NCBI GenBank assembly: GCA_034658915.1
Contig: JAYEGD010000290.1
Location: forward strand, 1 to 26,112
Origin: Campylobacterota bacterium
Lineage (GTDB): Bacteria; Campylobacterota; Campylobacteria; Campylobacterales; Sulfurimonadaceae
Direction of reading: 5' to 3'
Length of the DNA stretch: 26,112 bases
Shown here piece after piece: positions 5,749-23,330 of the stretch. The translations under genes were made by a program, and so were the position numbers. The notes beneath the pieces were generated by a model. The model saw only the letters and a program-made list of their open reading frames with translations, searched no databases and was not told the origin of the DNA. Numbering within the stretch: position 1 is the stretch's first letter; each line of letters starts with the position of its first letter.

Positions 5749-5823
5749 TGGTGCTCAATACTGGACTTGAACCAGTGACTTTTTCCTTGTCGAGGAAACA
5801 CTCTACCACTGAGTTAATCGAGC
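5749..5823 (-). tRNA. tRNA-Val (anticodon GAC), 75 nt including encoded CCA
   Basis: Manual cloverleaf: acceptor GCTCGAT/ATTGAGC (one G-U), D-stem ACTC/GAGT with AGTGGTA loop, anticodon stem TTTCC/GGAAA with loop TCGACAA, T-arm ACTGG-TTCAAGT-CCAGT, 3' ACCA. Position 33 is C rather than the usual U. Confidence 0.7.
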
Positions 5824-5934: not shown

Positions 5935-5969
5935 TCAAAAAATATTCAGATAAATATTCATACTAATAA

Positions 5970-6962
5970 ATGGAACATATAATGAAAAAAGAATCTACTC
6001 AAACAAAGGATGGGAAAGCATTTGAATATTCTATTCTAAAAGAATTTAAAGAAAAACTAGGAAGTTCAACGACAGTAGAGGTTTTAGAAAACAATGCATT
6101 ATTAACAGCACAAAAACACTTTAATTCTTTTAAAAAAATAGAACAAGCAGAATTTCTACTTTATGCAAGTTTTGCAGTTAACTTTTTAATTGATATAGAA
6201 CCAAGATTATCTAACAGCTTTGATGAAGATGATATTTTACAATTAGAAATATTAACATATGACAAGGGACAAGATGGTGATGTGAGAGATGTTGTTGCTA
6301 TAAGATTATTACAAAAATGGGAAATAGGGATTTCAGCTAAAAATAATCATAAAGCTATAAAACACTCAAGACTTTCTAATAAAATAGATTTTGGAGAAAA
6401 ATGGCTTGGAATAAAATCATCAACACAATATTTCGATGAAATAAGACCAATATTTAACTCTCTTGAAAAAATGAGAACAGAAAGTAATAAAACTAAAACT
6501 TGGAAATCTTTAGGCGATTATCATCATACAGTATATATTCCTATATTAGAAGCCTTTAAAACAGAATTATTAAGAATATATAATACAAACCCTTCTCAAG
6601 TTGCTTCTACTTTAGTAGAGTATCTAATAGGAACTAAAGATTTTTATAAAGTAATTAAAAGTAGAAACAATATTGAAATTCAAGCATATAATTTGCACGG
6701 CACTTTAAATTTACCTTTTAAAGATATTAATCCTAAATTTAATACACCAAAAGTTAATTTACCAACTGAAATTACCAACATATCGTATAAAAAAGACACA
6801 CTAACAACTTTAATCGTTGAATTAAATAACGATTGGACACTATCTTTTCGAATTCATAATGCAAGTTCTAGAATTGAACCATCATTAAAATTTGATATAA
6901 ATTTACTAAAAGCACCTAATTCATTATTTACCAATAAACTTTCTATTGGAGGAGAAGAGTAA
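5970..6962 (+). CDS. Putative Type II restriction endonuclease, cognate partner of the downstream m5C methyltransferase
   Basis: 330-aa ORF whose stop overlaps the methyltransferase ATG by 1 nt (gagtaATGaat), with a GGAGGA ribosome-binding site for the downstream gene inside its 3' end; no recognisable family motifs beyond a possible D..E.K-like patch (DVRDVVAI...EIGISAK); assignment rests on position. Confidence 0.5.
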   Translation: MEHIMKKESTQTKDGKAFEYSILKEFKEKLGSSTTVEVLENNALLTAQKHFNSFKKIEQAEFLLYASFAVNFLIDIEPRLSNSFDEDDILQLEILTYDKGQDGDVRDVVAIRLLQKWEIGISAKNNHKAIKHSRLSNKIDFGEKWLGIKSSTQYFDEIRPIFNSLEKMRTESNKTKTWKSLGDYHHTVYIPILEAFKTELLRIYNTNPSQVASTLVEYLIGTKDFYKVIKSRNNIEIQAYNLHGTLNLPFKDINPKFNTPKVNLPTEITNISYKKDTLTTLIVELNNDWTLSFRIHNASSRIEPSLKFDINLLKAPNSLFTNKLSIGGEE

Positions 6963-8047
6963 TGAATATAATATCTCTGTTTTCTGGTGCTGGAGGATTG
7001 GATTTAGGTTTTGAAAAAGCAGGTTTTAAAACTATTTGGGCGAATGAATATGACAAAGAAATTTGGCAAACATTTGAAAAAAATTTTCCTGATACCATTT
7101 TAGATAGAAGAAGTATATCAAAAATAGCATCAGATGAAATACCAGAAACATTAGGACTTATCGGTGGACCTCCATGTCAAAGTTGGAGTGAAGCAGGAAA
7201 ATCAAGAGGGATAGAAGACCATAGGGGACAACTATTTTTTGAGTTTATAAGAGTTTTAAGAGATAAAAAACCTCTATTTTTCTTAGCTGAAAATGTTTCA
7301 GGAATGTTAGCTCCAAGACATGAAGATGCATTGGAAAATATAAAAAACCACTTTATCGATAGTGGATACACTTTATCGTTTAAACTCATGAATGCTCATG
7401 ATTATAAAGTGCCTCAAGATAGAAAAAGGATATTTTTTATTGGATTTAGAAATGACCTAAATATCACTTTTAAATTTCCAAAAGAGTTTGAAAAAAAACG
7501 ATTTTTAAAAGATGTTATTTCTGATTTAAAAGATAATGTACTTCCTGCTAAAGAAAAAAATTATACAAATGCTGATAAGTGCAAAATAGAAAATCATGAA
7601 TTTATGATTGGTGGATTTTCATCAATGTTTATGTCTAGAAATCGAGTTAGAGGTTGGGATGAACCATCATTTACAATTCAAGCGGGTGGAAGACATGCAC
7701 CACTACATCCACAAGCACCTAAGATGCAACTTGTAGAGCAAAATAAAAGAATATTTGTTCCACATAGTGAACATCTGTATAGAAGACTTAGTGTTAGAGA
7801 GTGTGCTAGAATACAAACATTCCCAGATAGTCATAAATTCTATTATAAAAATGTGACTGCTGGATATAAAATGGTTGGTAATGCTGTACCTCCTAACCTC
7901 GCATACTACTTAGCAAAAAAAATAATTGAAGACTTACAAAGTATTCATCCTAACAAAACAGTGGAACTCACAAATATACCTATCGCTGGTAATTCTAATT
8001 ATTACGAAAATAGCTATATTCCTGAAATTCAAGCTGTGTCAGGCTAG
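6962..8047 (+). CDS. DNA (cytosine-5)-methyltransferase, M.HaeIII-like (predicted GGCC specificity)
   Basis: Motif I FSGAGGLDLGF, motif IV GGPPCQSWSEAG, motif VI ENV, C-terminal GNAVPPNLA. From memory the sequence is near-collinear with M.HaeIII (MNLISLFSGAGGLDLGF...GGPPCQSWSEGG...FMSRNRVR.W.EP.FT.QA.GR...LHPQAP...HLYRRL.VRECAR.Q.FPD...GYKM.GNAVP.NLAY). Confidence 0.9.
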   Translation: MNIISLFSGAGGLDLGFEKAGFKTIWANEYDKEIWQTFEKNFPDTILDRRSISKIASDEIPETLGLIGGPPCQSWSEAGKSRGIEDHRGQLFFEFIRVLRDKKPLFFLAENVSGMLAPRHEDALENIKNHFIDSGYTLSFKLMNAHDYKVPQDRKRIFFIGFRNDLNITFKFPKEFEKKRFLKDVISDLKDNVLPAKEKNYTNADKCKIENHEFMIGGFSSMFMSRNRVRGWDEPSFTIQAGGRHAPLHPQAPKMQLVEQNKRIFVPHSEHLYRRLSVRECARIQTFPDSHKFYYKNVTAGYKMVGNAVPPNLAYYLAKKIIEDLQSIHPNKTVELTNIPIAGNSNYYENSYIPEIQAVSG

Positions 8048-8200
8048 AAGGTACATTTGTAGTTCAACACAACCGTTATGTTCACACCAAGAAAATCAAT
8101 GAGAGAATCATTTAAAAGTAAAATTATAGAAGTTTGCAATAAGAAAATTGAAACTAGAGGTTCAAATGTTTCATAAAAAGCATATAGAAGAACATTTTAT

Positions 8201-8288
8201 CTCTCGAAAACATTGTTTTCGTAGCTTTAAGGGGTGGTAGGGACAAAATTGTCCCTACTACTAAAACGGACGGAGGCGTTTTAGTGCA
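8201..8288 (+). repeat. Copy 2 of the three-hairpin repeat element: HP1 cgaaaac-att-gttttcg, HP2 gtagggacaa-aa-ttgtccctac (perfect), HP3 actaaaacg-gacggagg-cgttttagt
   Basis: Aligns with copies 1 and 3; aaatg/cattt in other copies becomes aaacg/cgttt here (compensatory); sits between the convergent 3' ends of the methyltransferase and the HExxH gene. Confidence 0.8.
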
Positions 8289-8308: not shown

Positions 8309-9259
8309 CTAAGCTTGATTTACGTTAGCATTATGTAAAGCATCATCAAGCTCTTGATCAGAAATCTTTTTCCATGTACTTAAGTCAATTCCAAGTGTAA
8401 CATCTCTTCTTAAATATTTAGCATTCTCTTTTTCTTGGTGTTCTAGTAACTCTAGCACATCCTTGATATCAATCATAGCACCATCATTTCTTGGCATAAC
8501 TCCATAATCTGCTGGGTCGCTAAAGTCTCCTGTTAGGGCTCTGATTAATGTATCACTCTCTACAATATTGAAGTCATTAATAGCCTCATTTATATCAACT
8601 TTTATTCCCATCTCATCGAGTAATTTCAGTTGAGTTCTGAATGCTACATCTTCCCACTCTACCGCTCTTTGAGCGTTTAATAAAGACAAACCAGAATAGA
8701 TTTTTTTATCATTTTTGTTGTATGGATTCTTAATATCAAAAGATAAAGCACCAAACCTCTTGCTATCTCCATATCGTGACTGCATAAGAGTTTCTGTGAG
8801 CGCATGAGCTAGTTCATGAACTCCTCTCCATACTTTTGTATATTCTACATCATTAAATGCACCATGAGCAGAGTAAGGGTCATAAACAAAAATATTACCT
8901 TTTGCATAGCCATTCTTTTTAAGGCTTCTACTAGATGGCTGTTTAATTATTGTCTTCTCTCCAATTTTTCTACCAATATTGTCTGGATTCGTAGAAATAT
9001 ATTCAATATTGTATCCATACTTTTTAGCTAATTCATCTATGTAGTTTGGATTTTCAACCAGCTTACTTAATACGATAGACTTTAGCATATCAGCACTATT
9101 TTTGTTTGAGAACATCTCAAAAGTTCTACTAAATATAGCTTTGCACAAAGTATCAAAAGATTTTTTATCTCCCTGAGATGCCTTTTGTACAAGTTCAGCA
9201 GGCGCAGCAGATGTATTTATATGATGGCTAGTTGCATTAGTGTCGTTTGCTTTATTCAT
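8309..9259 (-). CDS. HExxH zinc-metalloprotease-like protein
   Basis: 316 aa with a single HELAH motif at residues 148-152 (WRGVHELAHALTE); GGAG ribosome-binding site; family not assignable from memory. Confidence 0.5.
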   Translation of the reverse strand: MNKANDTNATSHHINTSAAPAELVQKASQGDKKSFDTLCKAIFSRTFEMFSNKNSADMLKSIVLSKLVENPNYIDELAKKYGYNIEYISTNPDNIGRKIGEKTIIKQPSSRSLKKNGYAKGNIFVYDPYSAHGAFNDVEYTKVWRGVHELAHALTETLMQSRYGDSKRFGALSFDIKNPYNKNDKKIYSGLSLLNAQRAVEWEDVAFRTQLKLLDEMGIKVDINEAINDFNIVESDTLIRALTGDFSDPADYGVMPRNDGAMIDIKDVLELLEHQEKENAKYLRRDVTLGIDLSTWKKISDQELDDALHNANVNQA

Positions 9260-15897: not shown

Positions 15898-16370
15898 AGT
15901 TTGTTCTACTTTTTTTGTTTGTTACATCATTAGCCGCGCAGAGATATAATTTTGATGAGTCACGCTACATTAGTGCAATTTCTCAAACTTTTAAAAAGAG
16001 TGGGGTGATAGTAATTGAAGATGATAGTGTTCAAATTAGCTACAATAAACCAACTTTTTACAAAATAACTCTTAATAAAAATGGTGTTAGTATTGAAGAT
16101 GACTCAAAAAACATTACGCAACTAAAAGGAAAAAAACTACTCTTTTCAAAGCTCTACTTGAATTTAATTAAAGAGATAAACAAGAGTGCAACTCCAAAAA
16201 ATAGTGACTATTTTGATGTTAAAAGAGTTGAAAATGGGTATGAGTTATACCCTAAAGATGAGATGAAAAACTACATATCTAAACTATATTTACATGTAGA
16301 TGGTAATGAGTTGGTAAGTTTTAAAATTGTTATGCAAAATGAAGATGTAATTGAGATTGTGAAAAAATGA
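15894..16370 (+). CDS. Secreted LolA-like (lipoprotein-carrier-fold) protein, putative
   Basis: Signal peptide MKFVLLFLFVTSLAAQ; size and position upstream of an MMPL-type exporter resemble LolA-like components of lipid export clusters; weak. Confidence 0.35.
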   Translation: MKFVLLFLFVTSLAAQRYNFDESRYISAISQTFKKSGVIVIEDDSVQISYNKPTFYKITLNKNGVSIEDDSKNITQLKGKKLLFSKLYLNLIKEINKSATPKNSDYFDVKRVENGYELYPKDEMKNYISKLYLHVDGNELVSFKIVMQNEDVIEIVKK

Positions 16371-18451
16371 AAAAAGCTCATTTAAACTTACTTGTTTTCA
16401 TCTTTTTACTCGCTATGTTTGGAACTTTTTTCAAACATATTCATTTTAGTACAAACTTAGTAGAGCTTTTAGCTTCTAAAGATGTGACAAGACCAATTGA
16501 TATTGCAAATGAGCTAGGGTACTCAAAAGAGCTTTTTGTTAGCGTTAAGAGTTTTGATGAAAGCTCATTGAAAAAACTCCGTATTATCAAAGCTGAATTA
16601 GAGAAGTTAGAGCTAATTAATAGCGTTGAGTTAGAGCTAAAACCATCAGTTGAGGTGCAAGAGTATTTCAAGAAAAACTACTACATTTTAGCAGACTTCA
16701 ACTCCACAACATTGAGTGAAAATCAACTACATGTAAAGCTTGAAAAACTCTACAACAAAAGCATAAACTCTTTTATTTATGAGCCTCTCAACACGAGTGA
16801 CCCATTAGGGCTATTTGAGTTTAAAGTCTCAAACTACGAGAGCTATTTGAAGTTAGATGAGTTTGGTTATATGTTAAAAGCTTCTACTTCAGCGTCTCTA
16901 TCTAACATGAAAAATGCAAAGAGTATGTATGATGAGGTGCATGAAATTTTACAAAAATATCCTGATGCTATCTCTTTTGCTCCATTTTATTTTTTAGTAG
17001 AAAATTCAAGCTACATCAAAAGTGATGCAACTAATATTATTCTTTTCTCAACTGCTCTTTTACTACTTCTTTACATTGTAATTTTGAAAAATTTTAGGCT
17101 ATTTTTTCACACAATTGTTGCAATTTCTAGCTCAGTTTTGAGTGCTATTTTACTAACTTCACTCTTTTTTGAGAGCATTAACATTATGGTGTTGGCATTT
17201 GGAATAAGCATTACAACTATCTCAATTGACTATATGTTTCACTACTATTTTCATAATGAATTTTCACATCAACACCCAATTAAAAACAAAAAAGTATTTC
17301 TAGGTTTTCTTACAACTGTTGGTGTATTTGTTATTTTTAGTTTTATTGATATTAAACTTTTTGAACAACTTAGCATTTTTAGCGCAATCTCACTGAGTGT
17401 TGCTTACTTACTTTTTAGTTATGTTTTTATCTACTTGAGCATAGAGCCTCCAAAAGTTATTAAGAGTTCAAAAAAGAGCAGAGATATAAACTTGCTATAT
17501 GTAATGAGTGCTTGTGTGCTGATGTTAGCTTATGCATCTCAAAATTTGAGTTTCGATACAAACATAAGAAATTTAGACTACCAAAACACGAAGCTACTAA
17601 GTTTAAGTGAGCAATTTAGTAACTCACTGTCACGTGATGAGTACCAGAGCATTATAATTAGTGCATCAACTAAAGAGGGACTTCTACAACGTTATGAACA
17701 GTTAGCAAAAATAGAGCCATCGCTTCTAGGTATTGGAAAGTTTGAACTAAGCAAAAAAGAGTGCCAAAAGAGACTACATGTAATAAAAAACTACAACTTT
17801 ACAAAGCTTAAAAAAGAGCTAGAACAAAGTGCAACTTCTATTGGTTTTAACAACATATTTAAAAACTCTTATGATGGGCTAAATACTCTTACATGTAGTG
17901 TGGAAGTTCCAAAAAATATGGGTTTTAAAATAGCTTTTTATGATGGAGAGTTTCACACTTTAGCACTAATAAATGAAGATGTAAACATAGAGAATATGCA
18001 AGGAGCAAGCTCTCTACATGTAAGTAAAATTCTCTCAAAAAGTATTGAGTTTATGAAAGAGCAACTTCTTGTTTTTATGGCGCTATCTTTTGCTTTTATT
18101 TTAGCTCTGCTTTTTTTCATGGCAAAGAGTAGATTTTTAGAGCCTCTTAGTTATGTTTTGCTTCCTCTTAGTTCTGTTTTGTTTGTTATCTCATTAGTAG
18201 GTAACTTGAACATTATGCACCTCTTTGCCATTGTAATTTTAGTAGCAATTGGAATTGATTATGGCATTTACATGTACAACTCTACAACCATTTCACAAAC
18301 AACAACTGCAATAAGATATGCACTTTTAAGCACTTTTGCAGGGTTTGGAGTTTTGATTTTTAGTAGTGTTGTCGCTCTTTACTCTATTGGTTTAGTTATT
18401 AGCGTTGGAATTAGTGTCATAGCTATTTTACTTTTTTGGAAAAATTTATGA
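16367..18451 (+). CDS. MMPL/RND-superfamily membrane exporter (putative lipid exporter)
   Basis: 694 aa with two clusters of ~6 TM helices (residues ~220-350 and ~560-690), each preceded by a large soluble loop, as in MMPL/RND-type exporters. Confidence 0.6.
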   Translation: MKKAHLNLLVFIFLLAMFGTFFKHIHFSTNLVELLASKDVTRPIDIANELGYSKELFVSVKSFDESSLKKLRIIKAELEKLELINSVELELKPSVEVQEYFKKNYYILADFNSTTLSENQLHVKLEKLYNKSINSFIYEPLNTSDPLGLFEFKVSNYESYLKLDEFGYMLKASTSASLSNMKNAKSMYDEVHEILQKYPDAISFAPFYFLVENSSYIKSDATNIILFSTALLLLLYIVILKNFRLFFHTIVAISSSVLSAILLTSLFFESINIMVLAFGISITTISIDYMFHYYFHNEFSHQHPIKNKKVFLGFLTTVGVFVIFSFIDIKLFEQLSIFSAISLSVAYLLFSYVFIYLSIEPPKVIKSSKKSRDINLLYVMSACVLMLAYASQNLSFDTNIRNLDYQNTKLLSLSEQFSNSLSRDEYQSIIISASTKEGLLQRYEQLAKIEPSLLGIGKFELSKKECQKRLHVIKNYNFTKLKKELEQSATSIGFNNIFKNSYDGLNTLTCSVEVPKNMGFKIAFYDGEFHTLALINEDVNIENMQGASSLHVSKILSKSIEFMKEQLLVFMALSFAFILALLFFMAKSRFLEPLSYVLLPLSSVLFVISLVGNLNIMHLFAIVILVAIGIDYGIYMYNSTTISQTTTAIRYALLSTFAGFGVLIFSSVVALYSIGLVISVGISVIAILLFWKNL

Positions 18452-19581: not shown

Positions 19582-19652
19582 AATAGAGTACTTTTATTGT
19601 ATCATTGTGTATTAAATTTACAAATATACAAATATTCAACAAAGGAAGAGAA

Positions 19653-20345
19653 ATGAAAAAACAACTACTAACACTGGCTATGAGTGTTGCTGCACTTAGT
19701 GCTATGCAAAATAGCGATTTTGATAAACTAGAGGTGTTTAAAAGTAAAGGTGCTAAAACAGTAGCAAACAAACTAGTTGGTAAAAACTTGGATTTATATA
19801 TTGTTAGAGGTATTGATGGACGTGGAAACAGCTATGAAATAGTTGTAGATTCAACAGGTAGGTACATAGTTCCAACTGCCAGTGTTTTAGATATGAACAT
19901 CCAAGAAGCGATAAAAATTCCACTAGATATGTCAAAGTTAAAAGGTAAAGAAGCATTTAGTTATGGAAGCGGTAAAAATGAGTATTACGTGTTTACTGAT
20001 CCTGAGTGTCACTATTGTAAAAAGTTTGAGAAGATGTGGCCCTCACTAAGTAAAGATATTAAGCTTAATGTCTATCTTTACAACTTGCCATTTCATAAAG
20101 AGGCTAACAGTATGAGCAACTGGATTTTAAGTGCAAAAAATAGCAAAGAGAAAGCACAAAGGCTAATAGATATTGCTAATGGCTCAACTAAGTACAAAAG
20201 TGCTAAATATAGTGCAGATGAGATTAAAAAATTAAATGAGATATTGGCAAAACAAAAAGCGTTAGGTGTTGCTTATGGTGTTAAAGGAACTCCAACTGTG
20301 CTAGACTCTAAGGGCAACTCTGTTGTGTGGACAAATTTAAAGTAA
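19653..20345 (+). CDS. Periplasmic thiol:disulfide interchange protein, DsbC/DsbG-like
   Basis: Signal peptide MKKQLLTLAMSVAALSA, thioredoxin-fold CHYC active site (YVFTDPECHYCKKFE), N-terminal dimerisation-like domain; start chosen at the Met preceded by an AGGAAG ribosome-binding site rather than the track's 19605. Confidence 0.7.
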   Translation: MKKQLLTLAMSVAALSAMQNSDFDKLEVFKSKGAKTVANKLVGKNLDLYIVRGIDGRGNSYEIVVDSTGRYIVPTASVLDMNIQEAIKIPLDMSKLKGKEAFSYGSGKNEYYVFTDPECHYCKKFEKMWPSLSKDIKLNVYLYNLPFHKEANSMSNWILSAKNSKEKAQRLIDIANGSTKYKSAKYSADEIKKLNEILAKQKALGVAYGVKGTPTVLDSKGNSVVWTNLK

Positions 20346-21132: not shown

Positions 21133-22939
21133 TATACACCTCTTTAATTTTTAATGCATCACTCATATTCAGCACTTCAGCAATCTCTTCAACACTCAAT
21201 TTTTTTAGTGCTTCAAATGTTCCAAAATGAAGTAGAAGTTTTTTCACTTTTGCTTCGCTTACACCTTTTACATGTAGAAGTTTACTTTGCTTGTCTAATT
21301 TTAGTTTACTCTTTTTATGAAACCCTATTGCACTTCTATGCGCTTCATCTCTTAAAAGTTGAACAAACTGTAACCTTTTGTCAGAGGGTTGCAGTTTAAA
21401 TGAGTCGTTAATAGTATGAATTTCATCATTAGCCCTACCCTTTGCACGGTGTGATTTTGCATCTATCTTCTCTTTAGAAATAGCAATTACATCGAGGTTA
21501 ACACCACAACTCTCAATAATGCTTTGAGCTAGTAGAAGTAGAGTTCTACCACCATCTAAAACCCATAAATCAGGTGGTGGATTTTTTTCAAAACTCTCAA
21601 CTCTTCTTGTTAATGTCTCTCTCATTTGAGCATACTCATCTAACGCTTTTAAGTGGTAAAGTCTGTATGACTCTTTTTCAAACCTATTATCATCATACAC
21701 AACCATAGCTCCTACAGGTGCAGTTCCACCCATATGTGAGTTGTCAAATGTCTCTACTCTTAATGGTACTCTTTGTAGTGAACACAACTCTTTTAGTGCT
21801 TCGCCAACCTCTTGTGATTGCTCTTTTTTCTTAATTAATAGCTCTTTTGCATTACTAAAAGCCAATTGTGTAAGCTCTCTTTTAACACCCTTTTGAGGAG
21901 AAATTATTTTTACTTTTTTTCCAAAAAGGTTGGTTAAATGTTCTGAAATAACACCCTTTTCATCAAAATTATCATAACACAAAACATCTACTACAATGGG
22001 TGGTTTTTCATTTCCATAAAAGTTTACAATTGAGCGTGAGTATAGCTCATTAACATCTGCTCCATAGAGCAGATTTATATTAGTTGATGAACTTGAAATA
22101 ATCTTACCATCGCGCATAAACATCTGCATCATAACCGCTTTTTTCTCACTATGTGCTAGTGCAAAAATATCATAATTCTCACTACTCATCACATCAATAC
22201 TTGACTTAATTTCACTCTTTTGAATTCTTATAATTCTATCTCTTAGTGTTGCAGCCTCTTCAAAACGCTCATTTTGTGCATAAAAGAGCATCTTTTGCTC
22301 AATATCTTTAAGAAGTGTTTTTTTATTTTGAATATAGCTTACTCCTTTTGCAACAATTTTTTTGTACTCTTCAACGCTAATGCTACCCTCACATGGAGCT
22401 AAACACTTCTCGATTTGTTGATATAAACAAGCTTTCTTCCCTTTTAGACAACTCTTTTTTTGTACTAATTGACATAGCTCATAAATGCTGTCGTAAATAT
22501 CTCTAGCACCAATTGAGTATGGTCCAAAATATTTAATATCTCTACCTTTAATTACTCTTCTTGTTATCTCAAATCTTGGATAATCTTCTGACTCATCTAT
22601 GTAGATATAGGGGTAGGTTTTGTCATCACGAAGTAAAATATTGTATTTTGGATTCAACTGCTTAATAAGTGAGTTCTCTAAAATTAGCGCATCATGCTCA
22701 CTAGATACTACAATATACTCTAATGAGACTACTTCATCTAACATCTTTAAAATACGCAAAGATTGATTAGGGTTTGGCTTTAAAGTCGGAGTAAATCGCC
22801 AATAGCTTTTTACTCTTTTTGACAACTCCTTAGCTTTTCCAACATACAACAACTTGCCATTTTTGTCTAAATATTGGTAAATCCCTGCACTTTGTGGAAG
22901 AGATTTAATTACATGTAATAACTCATTAATCTCTTGCAT
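21119..22939 (-). CDS. uvrC: Excinuclease ABC subunit C
   Basis: N-terminal GIY-YIG ([28 protein letters not shown]), UvrBC-interaction region, C-terminal endonuclease and HhH regions; 606 aa. Confidence 0.9.
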
Positions 22940-23330
22940 TAAGTGCTGACTTTAAAACTTTTGCTAACGCTTTTTTACTTTGTGGATTTGCTTTATTAAG
23001 CGCTCTATCAAACTTTAATACTAATGTCTTATCTACATTTTTATGGCTAAACAGGCTTGTAATTAGACCCTCATACTTTTTAAATCCATTAGGTGGAATT
23101 TCAACATGATGCTCAATAATGTAGTTTACTGCATCATTAAGTTTTGACCTTGAGGAGTGTGAAGATTTAAAAATTTTTTCAACTTTTTCAAAACTCATCC
23201 CTGAGTCACTATTTTGCGCAGCTCTTTTTGCTCTTGATGATGCAATTACAACATACAATAGTACTAATATTGGTAAAACAAGAAGAGTAATTGCAACTGC
23301 TATAAGTAAAATCGTTATATCTATATTCAT
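22926..23330 (-). CDS. Small membrane protein (one N-terminal TM helix), hypothetical
   Basis: 134 aa, hydrophobic N-terminus; 4-nt overlap with the upstream kinase gene. Confidence 0.4.

What the first reader, a model, noticed from the sequence alone, without database searches (positions are those of the whole stretch)
20039..20042. GGCC is almost absent from the window (one site), consistent with selection by a GGCC restriction system
Scanning every GGC and GCC context finds a single GGCC, at 20039-20042 inside the dsbC-like gene. The sister tetramers are common: AGCC about 30, TGCC about 25, GGCT about 22, GGCA about 15, CGCC about 15 and GGCG about 11. Base composition predicts roughly 15-20 GGCC. 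Palindrome avoidance of this strength usually reflects long-term exposure of the lineage to a cognate restriction enzyme. That supports the GGCC call for the resident R-M pair, or for homologues common in this lineage.
Basis: seen in the sequence. Interest (0 to 1): 0.55.

Follow-up and report, generated by a model that had tools for sequence, protein, structure and literature searches.

The report
GGCC avoidance beside a HaeIII-type restriction system
This stretch of a Sulfurimonas-like bacterial genome has lost every GGCC site it could lose without changing a protein, and it carries an intact HaeIII-type (GGCC-cutting) restriction-modification gene pair; this is a clean but textbook case of a genome evolving to avoid a restriction enzyme's target.

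Summary
Dinucleotide shuffles expect 18.3±3.5. A stricter shuffle that keeps proteins and codon usage expects 7.5±2.4 (p≈0.0005). Non-palindromic G/C-only tetramers are at expectation, so this is not a composition effect.

The window encodes an intact HaeIII-family endonuclease (5982-6962) overlapping a C5-methyltransferase (6962-8047) that is 59.5% identical to M.HaeIII. The pair is a ~2.1-kb low-GC cassette found in a different genomic context in every carrier examined.

GGCC avoidance is lineage-wide but patchy. Pooled o/e is 0.42-0.48 over 80 related loci (1.2 Mb), none of which has the cassette at that locus. A few relatives are undepleted.

Codon-phase analysis favours selection against the site over m5C-deamination decay. 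The window's only GGCC is TGG|CCC (Trp-Pro), the one context with no synonymous escape.

However, most of the depletion probably reflects long, repeated exposure of the lineage rather than this particular cassette copy. GATC is also depleted in the window, and CCGG more weakly, with no cognate system in the window.

This is known biology with a new family member. The one less ordinary point is that Trp-Pro is absent from a related Sulfurovum-like clade (0 vs 21 expected).

The parts
20038..20041 (.). The only GGCC in the window. It is read as TGG|CCC (Trp-Pro) in the DsbC-like gene, just after the CHYC active-site motif (..ECHYCKKFEKMWPSL..). Trp has a single codon and every Pro codon starts with CC, so this site cannot be removed synonymously.
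   Evidence: it is the only Trp-Pro dipeptide in the window's ORFs
19605..20345 (+). DsbC/DsbG-like thiol:disulfide interchange protein gene that holds the surviving site
   Evidence: Pfam Thioredoxin_2 3.7e-10, DSBA 3.9e-5; CxxC motif visible in the translation
5982..6962 (+). HaeIII-family Type IIP restriction endonuclease gene. It is 326 aa from the ATG at 5982; the longest ORF starts at 5970. It looks intact.
   Evidence: PF09556 E 3e-96, profile positions 1-297 of 298; PADLOC REase_II 8e-99; alignment with 9 homologues keeps all invariant columns, and the homologues start at M5
6962..8047 (+). C5-cytosine DNA methyltransferase gene, M.HaeIII-like (predicted GG(m5C)C). Its ATG overlaps the R stop codon (TAATG), with a GGAGG Shine-Dalgarno inside the end of R.
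   Evidence: PF00145 E 8e-97; 1DCT M.HaeIII E 3e-128, residues 1-321 vs 1-320; 59.5% identity overall, 62% in the variable region; junction sequence
5951..8082 (+). Extent of the mobile R-M cassette, defined as the DNA homologous (81-85% identity) to the same two-gene module in other Campylobacterota genomes. GC is 29% against 33% for the rest of the window. It contains no GGCC.
   Evidence: blastn against L082-L089; cassette-removed statistics
5749..5823 (-). tRNA-Val(GAC) gene about 130 bp from the cassette's left edge. It is context only; the cassette lies on the tRNA's 5' side and no integrase is present.
   Evidence: ARAGORN; Rfam RF00005, 65.9 bits; 93-97.5% identical 80-bp stretch in unrelated contigs

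Best explanation
The near-absence of GGCC is restriction-site avoidance. It was produced by selection against the target of HaeIII-type (GG^CC) orthodox Type II restriction-modification systems, one of which is resident in the window.

Mechanism: the endonuclease cuts unmethylated GGCC, and the separate methyltransferase protects the site by making GG(m5C)C. Protection can lag behind the nuclease, for example after replication or repair, when such a cassette first arrives, or when it is lost. Each chromosomal GGCC is then a potential double-strand break, so lineages that meet these cassettes repeatedly accumulate site-destroying substitutions, mostly synonymous ones.

Shown here: (1) an intact cognate R-M pair; (2) depletion specific to GGCC beyond composition and codon usage; (3) depletion shared by many relatives, patchy, and not tied to this locus; (4) a codon-phase pattern that fits selection on the whole tetranucleotide; (5) the window sits at the synonymous floor, since its only GGCC is an unavoidable Trp-Pro.

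Inferred: that the enzymes are active and GGCC-specific; that self-restriction rather than restriction of exchanged DNA is the selective agent; and that most of the depletion predates the present cassette copy.
For: Specificity of the depletion: 1 site vs 18.3±3.5, 8.2-8.8 and 7.5±2.4. Other G/C-only tetramers are near o/e 1.

Cognate system: PF09556 and PF00145, M.HaeIII 1DCT E 3e-128, 59.5%/62% identity, intact R, PADLOC Type II REase and MTase.

Lineage pattern: pooled GGCC o/e is 0.42 (dinucleotide) and 0.48 (trinucleotide) over 80 loci and 1.2 Mb. 33 low-GC loci are at o/e 0.11-0.16, while low-GC L012, L032 and L046 are at 0.90-0.95, so the null model is sound at this GC. In carriers with the cassette removed, obs/e1/e2 are L089 2/24/14, L090 4/26/21, L100 1/16/11, L098 0/12/4, L083 10/27/20 and L085 24/44/38.

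Selection versus mutation: in the depleted relatives o/e by phase is GGC|C 0.09, nnG|GCC 0.16 and nGG|CCn 0.57. 18 of the 24 survivors in the last phase are TGG|CCn. After a G, Ala GCC falls from 11.9% to 1.9% and is replaced by GCA, GCT and GCG alike. At the conserved Met-Ala in the aminotransferase, 6 undepleted or intermediate relatives use ATG|GCC, while all 33 depleted relatives and the window use GCA/GCT/GCG. GGTC/GACC shows no excess.

The pattern matches published generalisations: orthodox Type II sites are avoided in about 50% of carriers, more so with long residence, and avoidance without the system is read as a trace of lost systems (PMC4687349). Self-restriction as the selective agent is discussed in PMC8410138.
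Against: Only 26 kb of the source genome is available, so genome-wide avoidance is extrapolated. Enzyme activity and specificity are predicted from homology and were not measured. It is unknown whether the 80 related genomes carry a GGCC system elsewhere, so presence versus depletion could not be tested as an association. One carrier (L085, 48% GC host) is only weakly depleted (o/e 0.55-0.63), which shows that presence alone does not give depletion. The insertion could not be dated because no close relative resolved the insertion site. GATC, and more weakly CCGG, are also depleted without a cognate in the window, so some general tendency to lose short palindromes in this lineage cannot be fully separated from the GGCC-specific pressure.
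Confidence: 0.8

Rival explanations
1. The resident cassette copy itself caused the depletion, through long residence at this locus, rather than earlier or other GGCC systems in the lineage.
For: The cassette is intact. Its GC (29%) is close to the host's (33%), so it is not obviously recent here. The window is at the synonymous floor, which under Rusinov et al. indicates long residence.
Against: None of the 80 relatives has the cassette at this locus, yet most low-GC ones are just as depleted. The cassette's GC is 26-29% in every host, so its closeness to this host's GC says nothing about age. Cassette DNA is 81-85% identical across hosts whose housekeeping proteins are only 50-80% identical, which implies transfer after those hosts diverged.
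Confidence: 0.25
2. Mutational decay. M.HaeIII-type methylation makes GG(m5C)C, 5-methylcytosine deaminates to T, and GGCC erodes to GGTC/GACC without any selection by the nuclease.
For: The methyltransferase is a C5 enzyme and the cassette has no Vsr-like repair gene. Gly GGC before C falls from 13% to 1% while GGT stays the commonest Gly codon there, which is compatible with C-to-T changes.
Against: In phase nnG|GCC both deamination products are nonsynonymous (Ala to Val or Thr), yet depletion there is nearly as strong (o/e 0.16) as in GGC|C (0.09). Sites in that phase are lost by changing the outer C or the preceding wobble base, which are not the methylated positions, and to A, T or G alike. 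GGTC/GACC is not enriched: 0.96 in depleted vs 0.91 in undepleted relatives, and 0.91 in the window.
Confidence: 0.07
3. Composition or codon-usage artefact. GGCC is rare simply because GGC, GCC and CCN codons are rare in a 33%-GC genome.
For: Codon- and trinucleotide-aware nulls halve the expectation from about 18 to about 8, so part of the apparent deficit is compositional.
Against: Observed 1 vs 7.5±2.4 with proteins and codon usage held fixed (p≈0.0005). Other G/C-only tetramers are at expectation. Relatives with the same GC (L012, L032, L046) have o/e 0.90-0.95.
Confidence: 0.03
4. General avoidance of short palindromes in this lineage for reasons unrelated to a specific GGCC system, such as many different R-M systems or DNA-structural effects, with the HaeIII cassette a coincidence.
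For: GATC (11 vs 43-58) and CCGG (0 vs 2-6) are also low in the window. The Sulfurovum-like relatives lack GGCC, CCGG, GCGC and GATC together.
Against: Avoidance is palindrome-specific and varies independently between genomes. The window has normal GCGC (25 vs 13.5-27.8), AGCT, TGCA and GTAC. Many Sulfurimonas-like relatives avoid GGCC while having normal or excess CCGG (for example L042 7/22 vs 35/11, L056 5/27 vs 35/17). That mosaic is what a changing repertoire of specific systems predicts.
Confidence: 0.1

Closest known systems
HaeIII restriction-modification system of Haemophilus aegyptius (R.HaeIII GG^CC; M.HaeIII GG(m5C)C; PDB 1DCT, 3UBT), with NgoPII-type relatives in Pfam PF09556
   Same: Same two protein families. 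The REase matches PF09556 over its full length. The MTase aligns with M.HaeIII over 321 columns with a single one-residue gap, at 59.5% identity, including the target-recognition region. The R and M genes are separate and adjacent, i.e. an orthodox Type IIP arrangement.
   Different: The host is a Sulfurimonas-like member of the Campylobacterota. The gene order is R then M with a 1-nt overlap. The MTase has about 35 extra C-terminal residues (361 vs 330 aa). Specificity and activity are predicted, not measured.
Restriction-site (palindrome) avoidance in host genomes (Karlin 1992; Gelfand & Koonin 1997; Rocha 2001; Rusinov et al. 2015, PMC4687349)
   Same: The site of an orthodox Type II system is under-represented in the genome that encodes it. 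Avoidance also appears in relatives where the system was not found at the sampled locus, and carriers differ in degree, as the published residence-time ('lifespan') model expects.
   Different: Here the depletion is resolved by codon phase and shown to reach the synonymous floor in the window. In a related clade it extends to loss of the Trp-Pro dipeptide. A nonsynonymous contribution is only mentioned as a possibility in the review read (PMC8410138).
Helicobacter pylori and other Campylobacterota with large, variable R-M repertoires and multiple avoided palindromes
   Same: Same phylum. Several 4-bp palindromes are avoided at once (GGCC, GATC, CCGG), and the patterns differ between close lineages. 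This is consistent with turnover of R-M systems in bacteria that exchange DNA frequently (my own knowledge, together with PMC4687349's remarks on H. pylori).
   Different: These are free-living, vent- and sediment-type Sulfurimonadaceae and Sulfurovum-like genomes known mainly as MAGs, and no methylome data exist for them here.
BsuRI / BspRI (GGCC isoschizomers of Bacillus)
   Same: Same predicted recognition sequence and the same m5C methylation (my own knowledge; the BspRI paper PMC2978348 is listed).
   Different: From my own knowledge their endonucleases belong to other families than PF09556. I did not compare them here. The window's enzyme is of the HaeIII type.

Membership tests
HaeIII-family orthodox Type IIP R-M system (GGCC) | Endonuclease belonging to the HaeIII REase family over its full length | tested here: met
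   PF09556 E 3e-96, profile positions 1-297 of 298; PADLOC REase_II 8e-99; all invariant columns of a 10-sequence alignment retained
HaeIII-family orthodox Type IIP R-M system (GGCC) | C5-cytosine methyltransferase with catalytic motifs and a target-recognition domain like M.HaeIII | tested here: met
   1DCT E 3e-128 over residues 1-321 vs 1-320; GGPPCQSWS, FLAENV, QDRKR and GNAVP motifs visible in the alignment; 59.5% identity overall, 62% in the variable region
HaeIII-family orthodox Type IIP R-M system (GGCC) | Separate, adjacent R and M genes forming one unit | tested here: met
   R 5982-6962 and M 6962-8047 on the same strand, TAATG overlap; the same pair travels together in 8 other host loci
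HaeIII-family orthodox Type IIP R-M system (GGCC) | Cleavage at GG^CC and methylation of the inner cytosine | not testable with these tools
   Needs enzyme assays or methylome sequencing; inferred from homology only
Restriction-site avoidance in a host genome | Site significantly under-represented against Markov or compositional expectation | tested here: met
   o/e 0.05 (dinucleotide), 0.11-0.12 (trinucleotide), 0.13 (codon shuffle, p≈0.0005)
Restriction-site avoidance in a host genome | Not explained by base composition or codon usage; compositionally equivalent words not depleted | tested here: met
   Most G/C-only non-palindromes at o/e 0.9-1.1, CCCG/CGGG 0.70, GCGC 0.9; same-GC relatives with o/e about 1
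Restriction-site avoidance in a host genome | Cognate orthodox Type II system encoded in the genome or its lineage | tested here: met
   Resident pair; close homologues (79-91% identity) in Sulfurimonas, Sulfurovum-labelled and Halarcobacter genomes
Restriction-site avoidance in a host genome | Avoidance holds genome-wide in the source organism | not testable with these tools
   The source genome is not retrievable: exact look-ups found only a 5-kb contig that lies inside the window, and the metagenome scan was unproductive
Restriction-site avoidance in a host genome | Depletion correlates with presence or residence time of the system across related genomes | tested here: inconclusive
   Carriers pooled give o/e about 0.26-0.37 against 0.42-0.48 for the 80 loci of unknown status. 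The R-M status of those 80 genomes outside the sampled locus is unknown.
m5C-deamination-driven site decay | Excess of the deamination products GGTC/GACC | tested here: not met
   o/e 0.91 in the window; 0.96 in depleted vs 0.91 in undepleted relatives
m5C-deamination-driven site decay | Loss concentrated where inner-C to T is synonymous (GGC|C) and weak where it is not (nnG|GCC) | tested here: not met
   o/e 0.09 vs 0.16, both strongly depleted; replacements occur at unmethylated positions

The most novel reading that the evidence does not exclude
In this branch of the Campylobacterota, pressure from GGCC-specific restriction systems has been strong and long enough to act on protein sequence as well as on synonymous sites. 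The window sits exactly at the synonymous floor, since its only GGCC is an unavoidable Trp-Pro. In a related Sulfurovum-like clade the Trp-Pro dipeptide has been removed altogether: 0 observed vs 21.4 expected in 75,600 residues. It is the only W-X or X-P dipeptide at zero, while sister lineages without GGCC avoidance have o/e of about 1. If this holds genome-wide, it would be a clear case of a restriction enzyme shaping a proteome's dipeptide content.
Probability: 0.45. Interest if true: 0.55.

Novelty: new member of a known kind. Interest (0 to 1): 0.33.

Why it matters
For this window the result is confirmatory. It shows that the R-M pair is very probably GGCC-specific, and that the host lineage has a long history with such systems. 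That is useful for annotation, for predicting the methylome, and for anyone trying to transform these so far mostly uncultured Sulfurimonas/Sulfurovum-type bacteria: DNA free of GGCC, or pre-methylated with M.HaeIII, should escape this barrier.

More generally, the codon-phase test used here separates selection against a restriction site from methylation-driven mutational decay using sequence alone. The data also suggest that site avoidance can go beyond synonymous changes to remove a dipeptide, Trp-Pro. The literature read here mentions that only as a possibility.

Tried and rejected
1. Extending the window to more of the same genome. Exact-protein look-ups for the REase and the Na/Ala symporter found nothing. 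The FIST kinase gave only a 5.2-kb Logan contig that lies inside the window. The genome-wide o/e for the source organism therefore could not be computed.

2. Resolving the cassette's insertion site by synteny. The genome scan anchored on the aminotransferase returned 80 loci, but only aminotransferase-SPFH-HisIE(-DUF2393 x2) is syntenic, and the nearest relatives are only 70-79% identical in SPFH/HisIE. The one metagenome scan, anchored on the gene next to the cassette, found only an 80-bp tRNA-Val match. The insertion could not be dated.

3. Ranking relatives by aminotransferase identity was misleading. The top hits (86-90%) turned out to be the more distant Sulfurovum-like group (SPFH/HisIE 52-57%).

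4. Linking REase-carrying contigs to the 80 loci by WGS accession prefix gave no overlap. An association test of R-M presence against depletion was therefore not possible.

5. Gly-codon redistribution before C, as a deamination test, was confounded by different codon usage in the control group. I relied on the Ala phase instead.

6. Composition artefact and deamination decay were considered and rejected (see the rival explanations).

7. NCBIfam and PADLOC scans of the unannotated neighbours found no further defence genes that could explain the GATC or CCGG depletion.

8. The literature search for GGCC in Sulfurimonas returned nothing relevant.

Full report
**Observation**

GGCC occurs once in the 26,112-bp window, at 20038-20041. 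That is one base to the left of the coordinates given. The window is 32.8% G+C.

- Expectation from mononucleotide and dinucleotide composition is 18-18.5. In 100 dinucleotide-preserving shuffles the mean was 18.26 with sd 3.51, and no shuffle had fewer than one site.
- Two stricter nulls give a lower expectation. A trinucleotide Markov model expects 8.2-8.8. A shuffle that permutes synonymous codons while keeping all 27 protein sequences and the pooled codon usage expects 7.5±2.4. Only 1 of 2000 shuffles reached the observed count.
- The deficit is real (o/e 0.05-0.13), and it holds after correction for the 16 palindromic tetramers. About half of the naive deficit comes from codon usage.
Most non-palindromic G/C-only tetramers lie at o/e 0.9-1.1 and GCGC at 0.9. 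CCCG/CGGG is lower, at 0.70 on 5 observations. Only GGCC (0.11), CCGG (0 observed) and CGCG (0.47) are clearly low.
CCGG is absent (expected 1.9-5.6). GATC is statistically the most depleted (11 vs 43-58).

**What is in the window**

The window is about 95% coding and mostly housekeeping. It includes a Na/Ala symporter, MlaDEF, MoaC, MobA, HisIE, an SPFH protein, a class IV aminotransferase, RNase HII, a DsbC-like protein, a SuhB-like protein, UvrC and a FIST histidine kinase.

- An ORF matches Pfam RE_HaeIII over the whole profile (E 3e-96). It is followed by a C5-cytosine methyltransferase (E 8e-97).
- The methyltransferase aligns with M.HaeIII (PDB 1DCT) over 321 columns with a single one-residue gap (E 3e-128), and the catalytic motifs are visible. 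It is 59.5% identical overall and 62% in the variable, target-recognising region.
- The endonuclease keeps every invariant residue of a 10-member alignment. It most likely starts at the ATG at 5982 (326 aa), as its homologues do.
- The R stop codon and the M start codon overlap (TAATG), with a GGAGG just upstream.
- PADLOC calls the two a Type II REase and a Type II MTase. No other defence gene was found in the window.

The GGCC specificity is therefore well supported by homology, though it has not been measured.

**The R-M pair is a mobile cassette**

- The closest endonuclease homologues (79-91% identity) come from Sulfurimonas, Sulfurovum-labelled and Halarcobacter genomes and from vent and sediment metagenomes.
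- In eight host loci (seven distinct genomic contexts, L090 and L093 being syntenic) the same R-then-M module sits among unrelated housekeeping genes.
- DNA homology to the window runs from about 5951 to 8025-8082 at 81-85% identity.
- The cassette's G+C is 26-29% in every host, while the hosts range from 27.5% to 48%.
- Housekeeping proteins of the related genomes are only 50-80% identical to the window's. The cassette has therefore moved between these lineages since they diverged.
- In the window it lies about 130 bp from a tRNA-Val(GAC) gene (5749-5823, minus strand), on the tRNA's 5' side and without an integrase.

**Relatives**

One genome-collection scan, anchored on the aminotransferase, returned 80 loci (1.2 Mb) from Sulfurimonadaceae and Sulfurovum-like MAGs.

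- None carries a HaeIII-type endonuclease in the fetched region. Synteny with the window does not extend to the insertion site, so this is not a test of the orthologous site. Even so, pooled GGCC o/e is 0.42 (dinucleotide) to 0.48 (trinucleotide). The same-composition palindrome CCGG is at 0.9-1.2.
- 33 low-GC loci (576 kb) have o/e 0.11-0.16.
- Three low-GC loci (L012, L032, L046) and the 44-51% GC Sulfurimonadaceae have o/e 0.8-1.0. The null model is therefore sound at this composition, and the avoidance is patchy rather than universal.
- Carriers of the cassette, analysed with the cassette removed, range from 0/12 and 2/24 through 10/27 to 24/44 (observed / dinucleotide expectation). The least depleted is the 48%-GC host, where the cassette's composition stands out most.

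All of this matches the published picture. Orthodox Type II sites are avoided in about half of carrier genomes, more so with long residence. Avoidance without the system is interpreted as a trace of lost systems (Rusinov et al. 2015, PMC4687349).

**Selection or mutation?**

M.HaeIII-type methylation marks the inner cytosine, so deamination would give GGTC or GACC. Three results argue against deamination as the driver.

1. GGTC/GACC is not enriched: o/e is 0.91 in the window, and 0.96 in depleted against 0.91 in undepleted relatives.
2. Depletion was resolved by codon phase against a per-locus synonymous shuffle. In the depleted relatives, GGC|C is at o/e 0.09. nnG|GCC is at 0.16, even though in that phase both deamination products would change the amino acid. 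nGG|CCn, where synonymous escape is limited, is at only 0.57.
3. The replacements occur at unmethylated positions and go to any base. After a G, Ala GCC falls from 11.9% to 1.9%, while GCA, GCT and GCG all rise. At a conserved Met-Ala in the aminotransferase, six undepleted or intermediate relatives read ATG|GCC, while all 33 depleted relatives and the window read GCA, GCT or GCG.

The tetranucleotide as a whole is being selected against. That is what a nuclease recognising GGCC would do. Self-restriction when methylation lags is the agent proposed in the literature (PMC8410138). Whether self-restriction or restriction of exchanged DNA matters more here is inferred, not shown.

**The surviving site**

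The window's one GGCC is TGG|CCC, a Trp-Pro pair just after the CHYC active-site motif of the DsbC-like protein.

- Trp has one codon and all Pro codons begin with CC, so Trp-Pro is the only dipeptide that forces a GGCC. It is the only Trp-Pro in the window's ORFs (expected 1.3).
- The window therefore has no synonymously removable GGCC, against about 6.5 expected.
- 18 of the 24 survivors in that phase in the depleted relatives are also TGG|CCN.
- In carrier L082 the single GGCC is again a Trp-Pro, and in L089 one of the two is.

**A less ordinary side result, outside the window**

- In 16 Sulfurovum-like loci (75,600 residues, 231 ORFs) Trp-Pro is absent: 0 against 21.4 expected. It is the only W-X or X-P dipeptide at zero.
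- W-X dipeptides with similar expectations occur 20-41 times in 15-20 distinct sequence contexts, so redundancy among orthologues does not explain the zero.
- In Sulfurimonas-like loci Trp-Pro o/e is 0.63 in depleted, 1.06 in intermediate and 0.95 in undepleted genomes.
- This suggests that avoidance can reach the amino-acid level. It rests on about 20 kb per genome and needs whole proteomes to confirm.

**Verdict**

The depletion is shared with relatives that lack the cassette in the sampled region, and the cassette is mobile, so the present copy is probably the latest in a series of exposures rather than the sole cause.

The phenomenon and the enzyme family are both well known. What is new is a further family member in a little-studied group, a clean demonstration that the window is at the synonymous floor, and the Trp-Pro lead. 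The genome-wide test for the source organism could not be run because its genome is not in the searchable collections.

Noticed in passing
window, whole: GATC is the most strongly depleted palindrome (11 observed vs 43-58 expected, o/e about 0.2). CCGG is absent (0 vs 1.9-5.6; p 0.013 by codon shuffle, not significant under the trinucleotide model). No cognate R-M genes for either are in the window. Many relatives share one or both depletions, in different combinations.
   Followed up: partly
L002-L011, L013, L015, L019, L021, L023-L025 (Sulfurovum-like relatives): The Trp-Pro dipeptide, which forces a GGCC, is completely absent: 0 vs 21.4 expected in 75,600 residues. It is the only W-X or X-P dipeptide at zero. 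Sister lineages without GGCC avoidance have o/e of about 1. This suggests restriction-site avoidance acting at the amino-acid level.
   Followed up: partly
L002-L015 and similar loci, compared with the window: The Sulfurovum-like relatives also lack GCGC almost entirely (0-1 vs 3-14 expected). The window has a normal GCGC count (25 vs 13.5-27.8). Sets of avoided palindromes differ between lineages like a mosaic.
   Followed up: partly
window 5749-5823 (-): tRNA-Val(GAC) gene about 130 bp from the cassette's left edge. The longest-ORF start (GTG at 5801) of the neighbouring 459-aa gene overlaps the tRNA, so that gene's true start must be at a lower coordinate. That protein has no relatives in the metagenome scan and only a sub-threshold cNMP-binding hit.
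   Followed up: partly
L089:10978-12059 (Halarcobacter anaerophilus JXXG01000001.1): Next to an intact HaeIII-type endonuclease gene, the methyltransferase is called as two ORFs (181 + 146 aa). This could be a frameshift, a pseudogene or a sequencing error. The flanking DNA in that locus has only 2 GGCC in 19 kb (14-24 expected). If the split is real, near-absence of sites might make loss of the methylase tolerable.
   Followed up: no
window 5951-8082 and the cassettes in L082-L100: The cassette's G+C stays at 26-29% in hosts ranging from 27.5% to 48% G+C, so it has not ameliorated towards the host composition. In L100 it sits beside a phage-type integrase, a DUF4365 protein and toxin-antitoxin genes, in what looks like a defence or mobile island.
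   Followed up: partly
window, whole: CGCC/GGCG is about twice as frequent as expected (36 vs 17). It is also raised in GGCC-depleted relatives (o/e 1.47 against 1.04 in undepleted ones). Part of this follows arithmetically from removing GGCC from the GGCN pool, but the excess is larger than for GGCA or GGCT.
   Followed up: no
window 8237-8258: Perfect 9-bp inverted repeat with a 4-nt loop (GTAGGGACAAAATTGTCCCTAC) in the 260-bp spacer between the methyltransferase gene and the convergent 316-aa ORF. It is probably a bidirectional terminator, and it lies just outside the cassette homology.
   Followed up: no
window 8309-9259 (-), 16367-18451 (+), 22926-23330 (-): Three ORFs of 316, 694 and 134 aa have no Pfam, NCBIfam or PADLOC match. 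The 694-aa ORF sits between a weakly LolA-like ORF and an AMP-binding enzyme gene.
   Followed up: no
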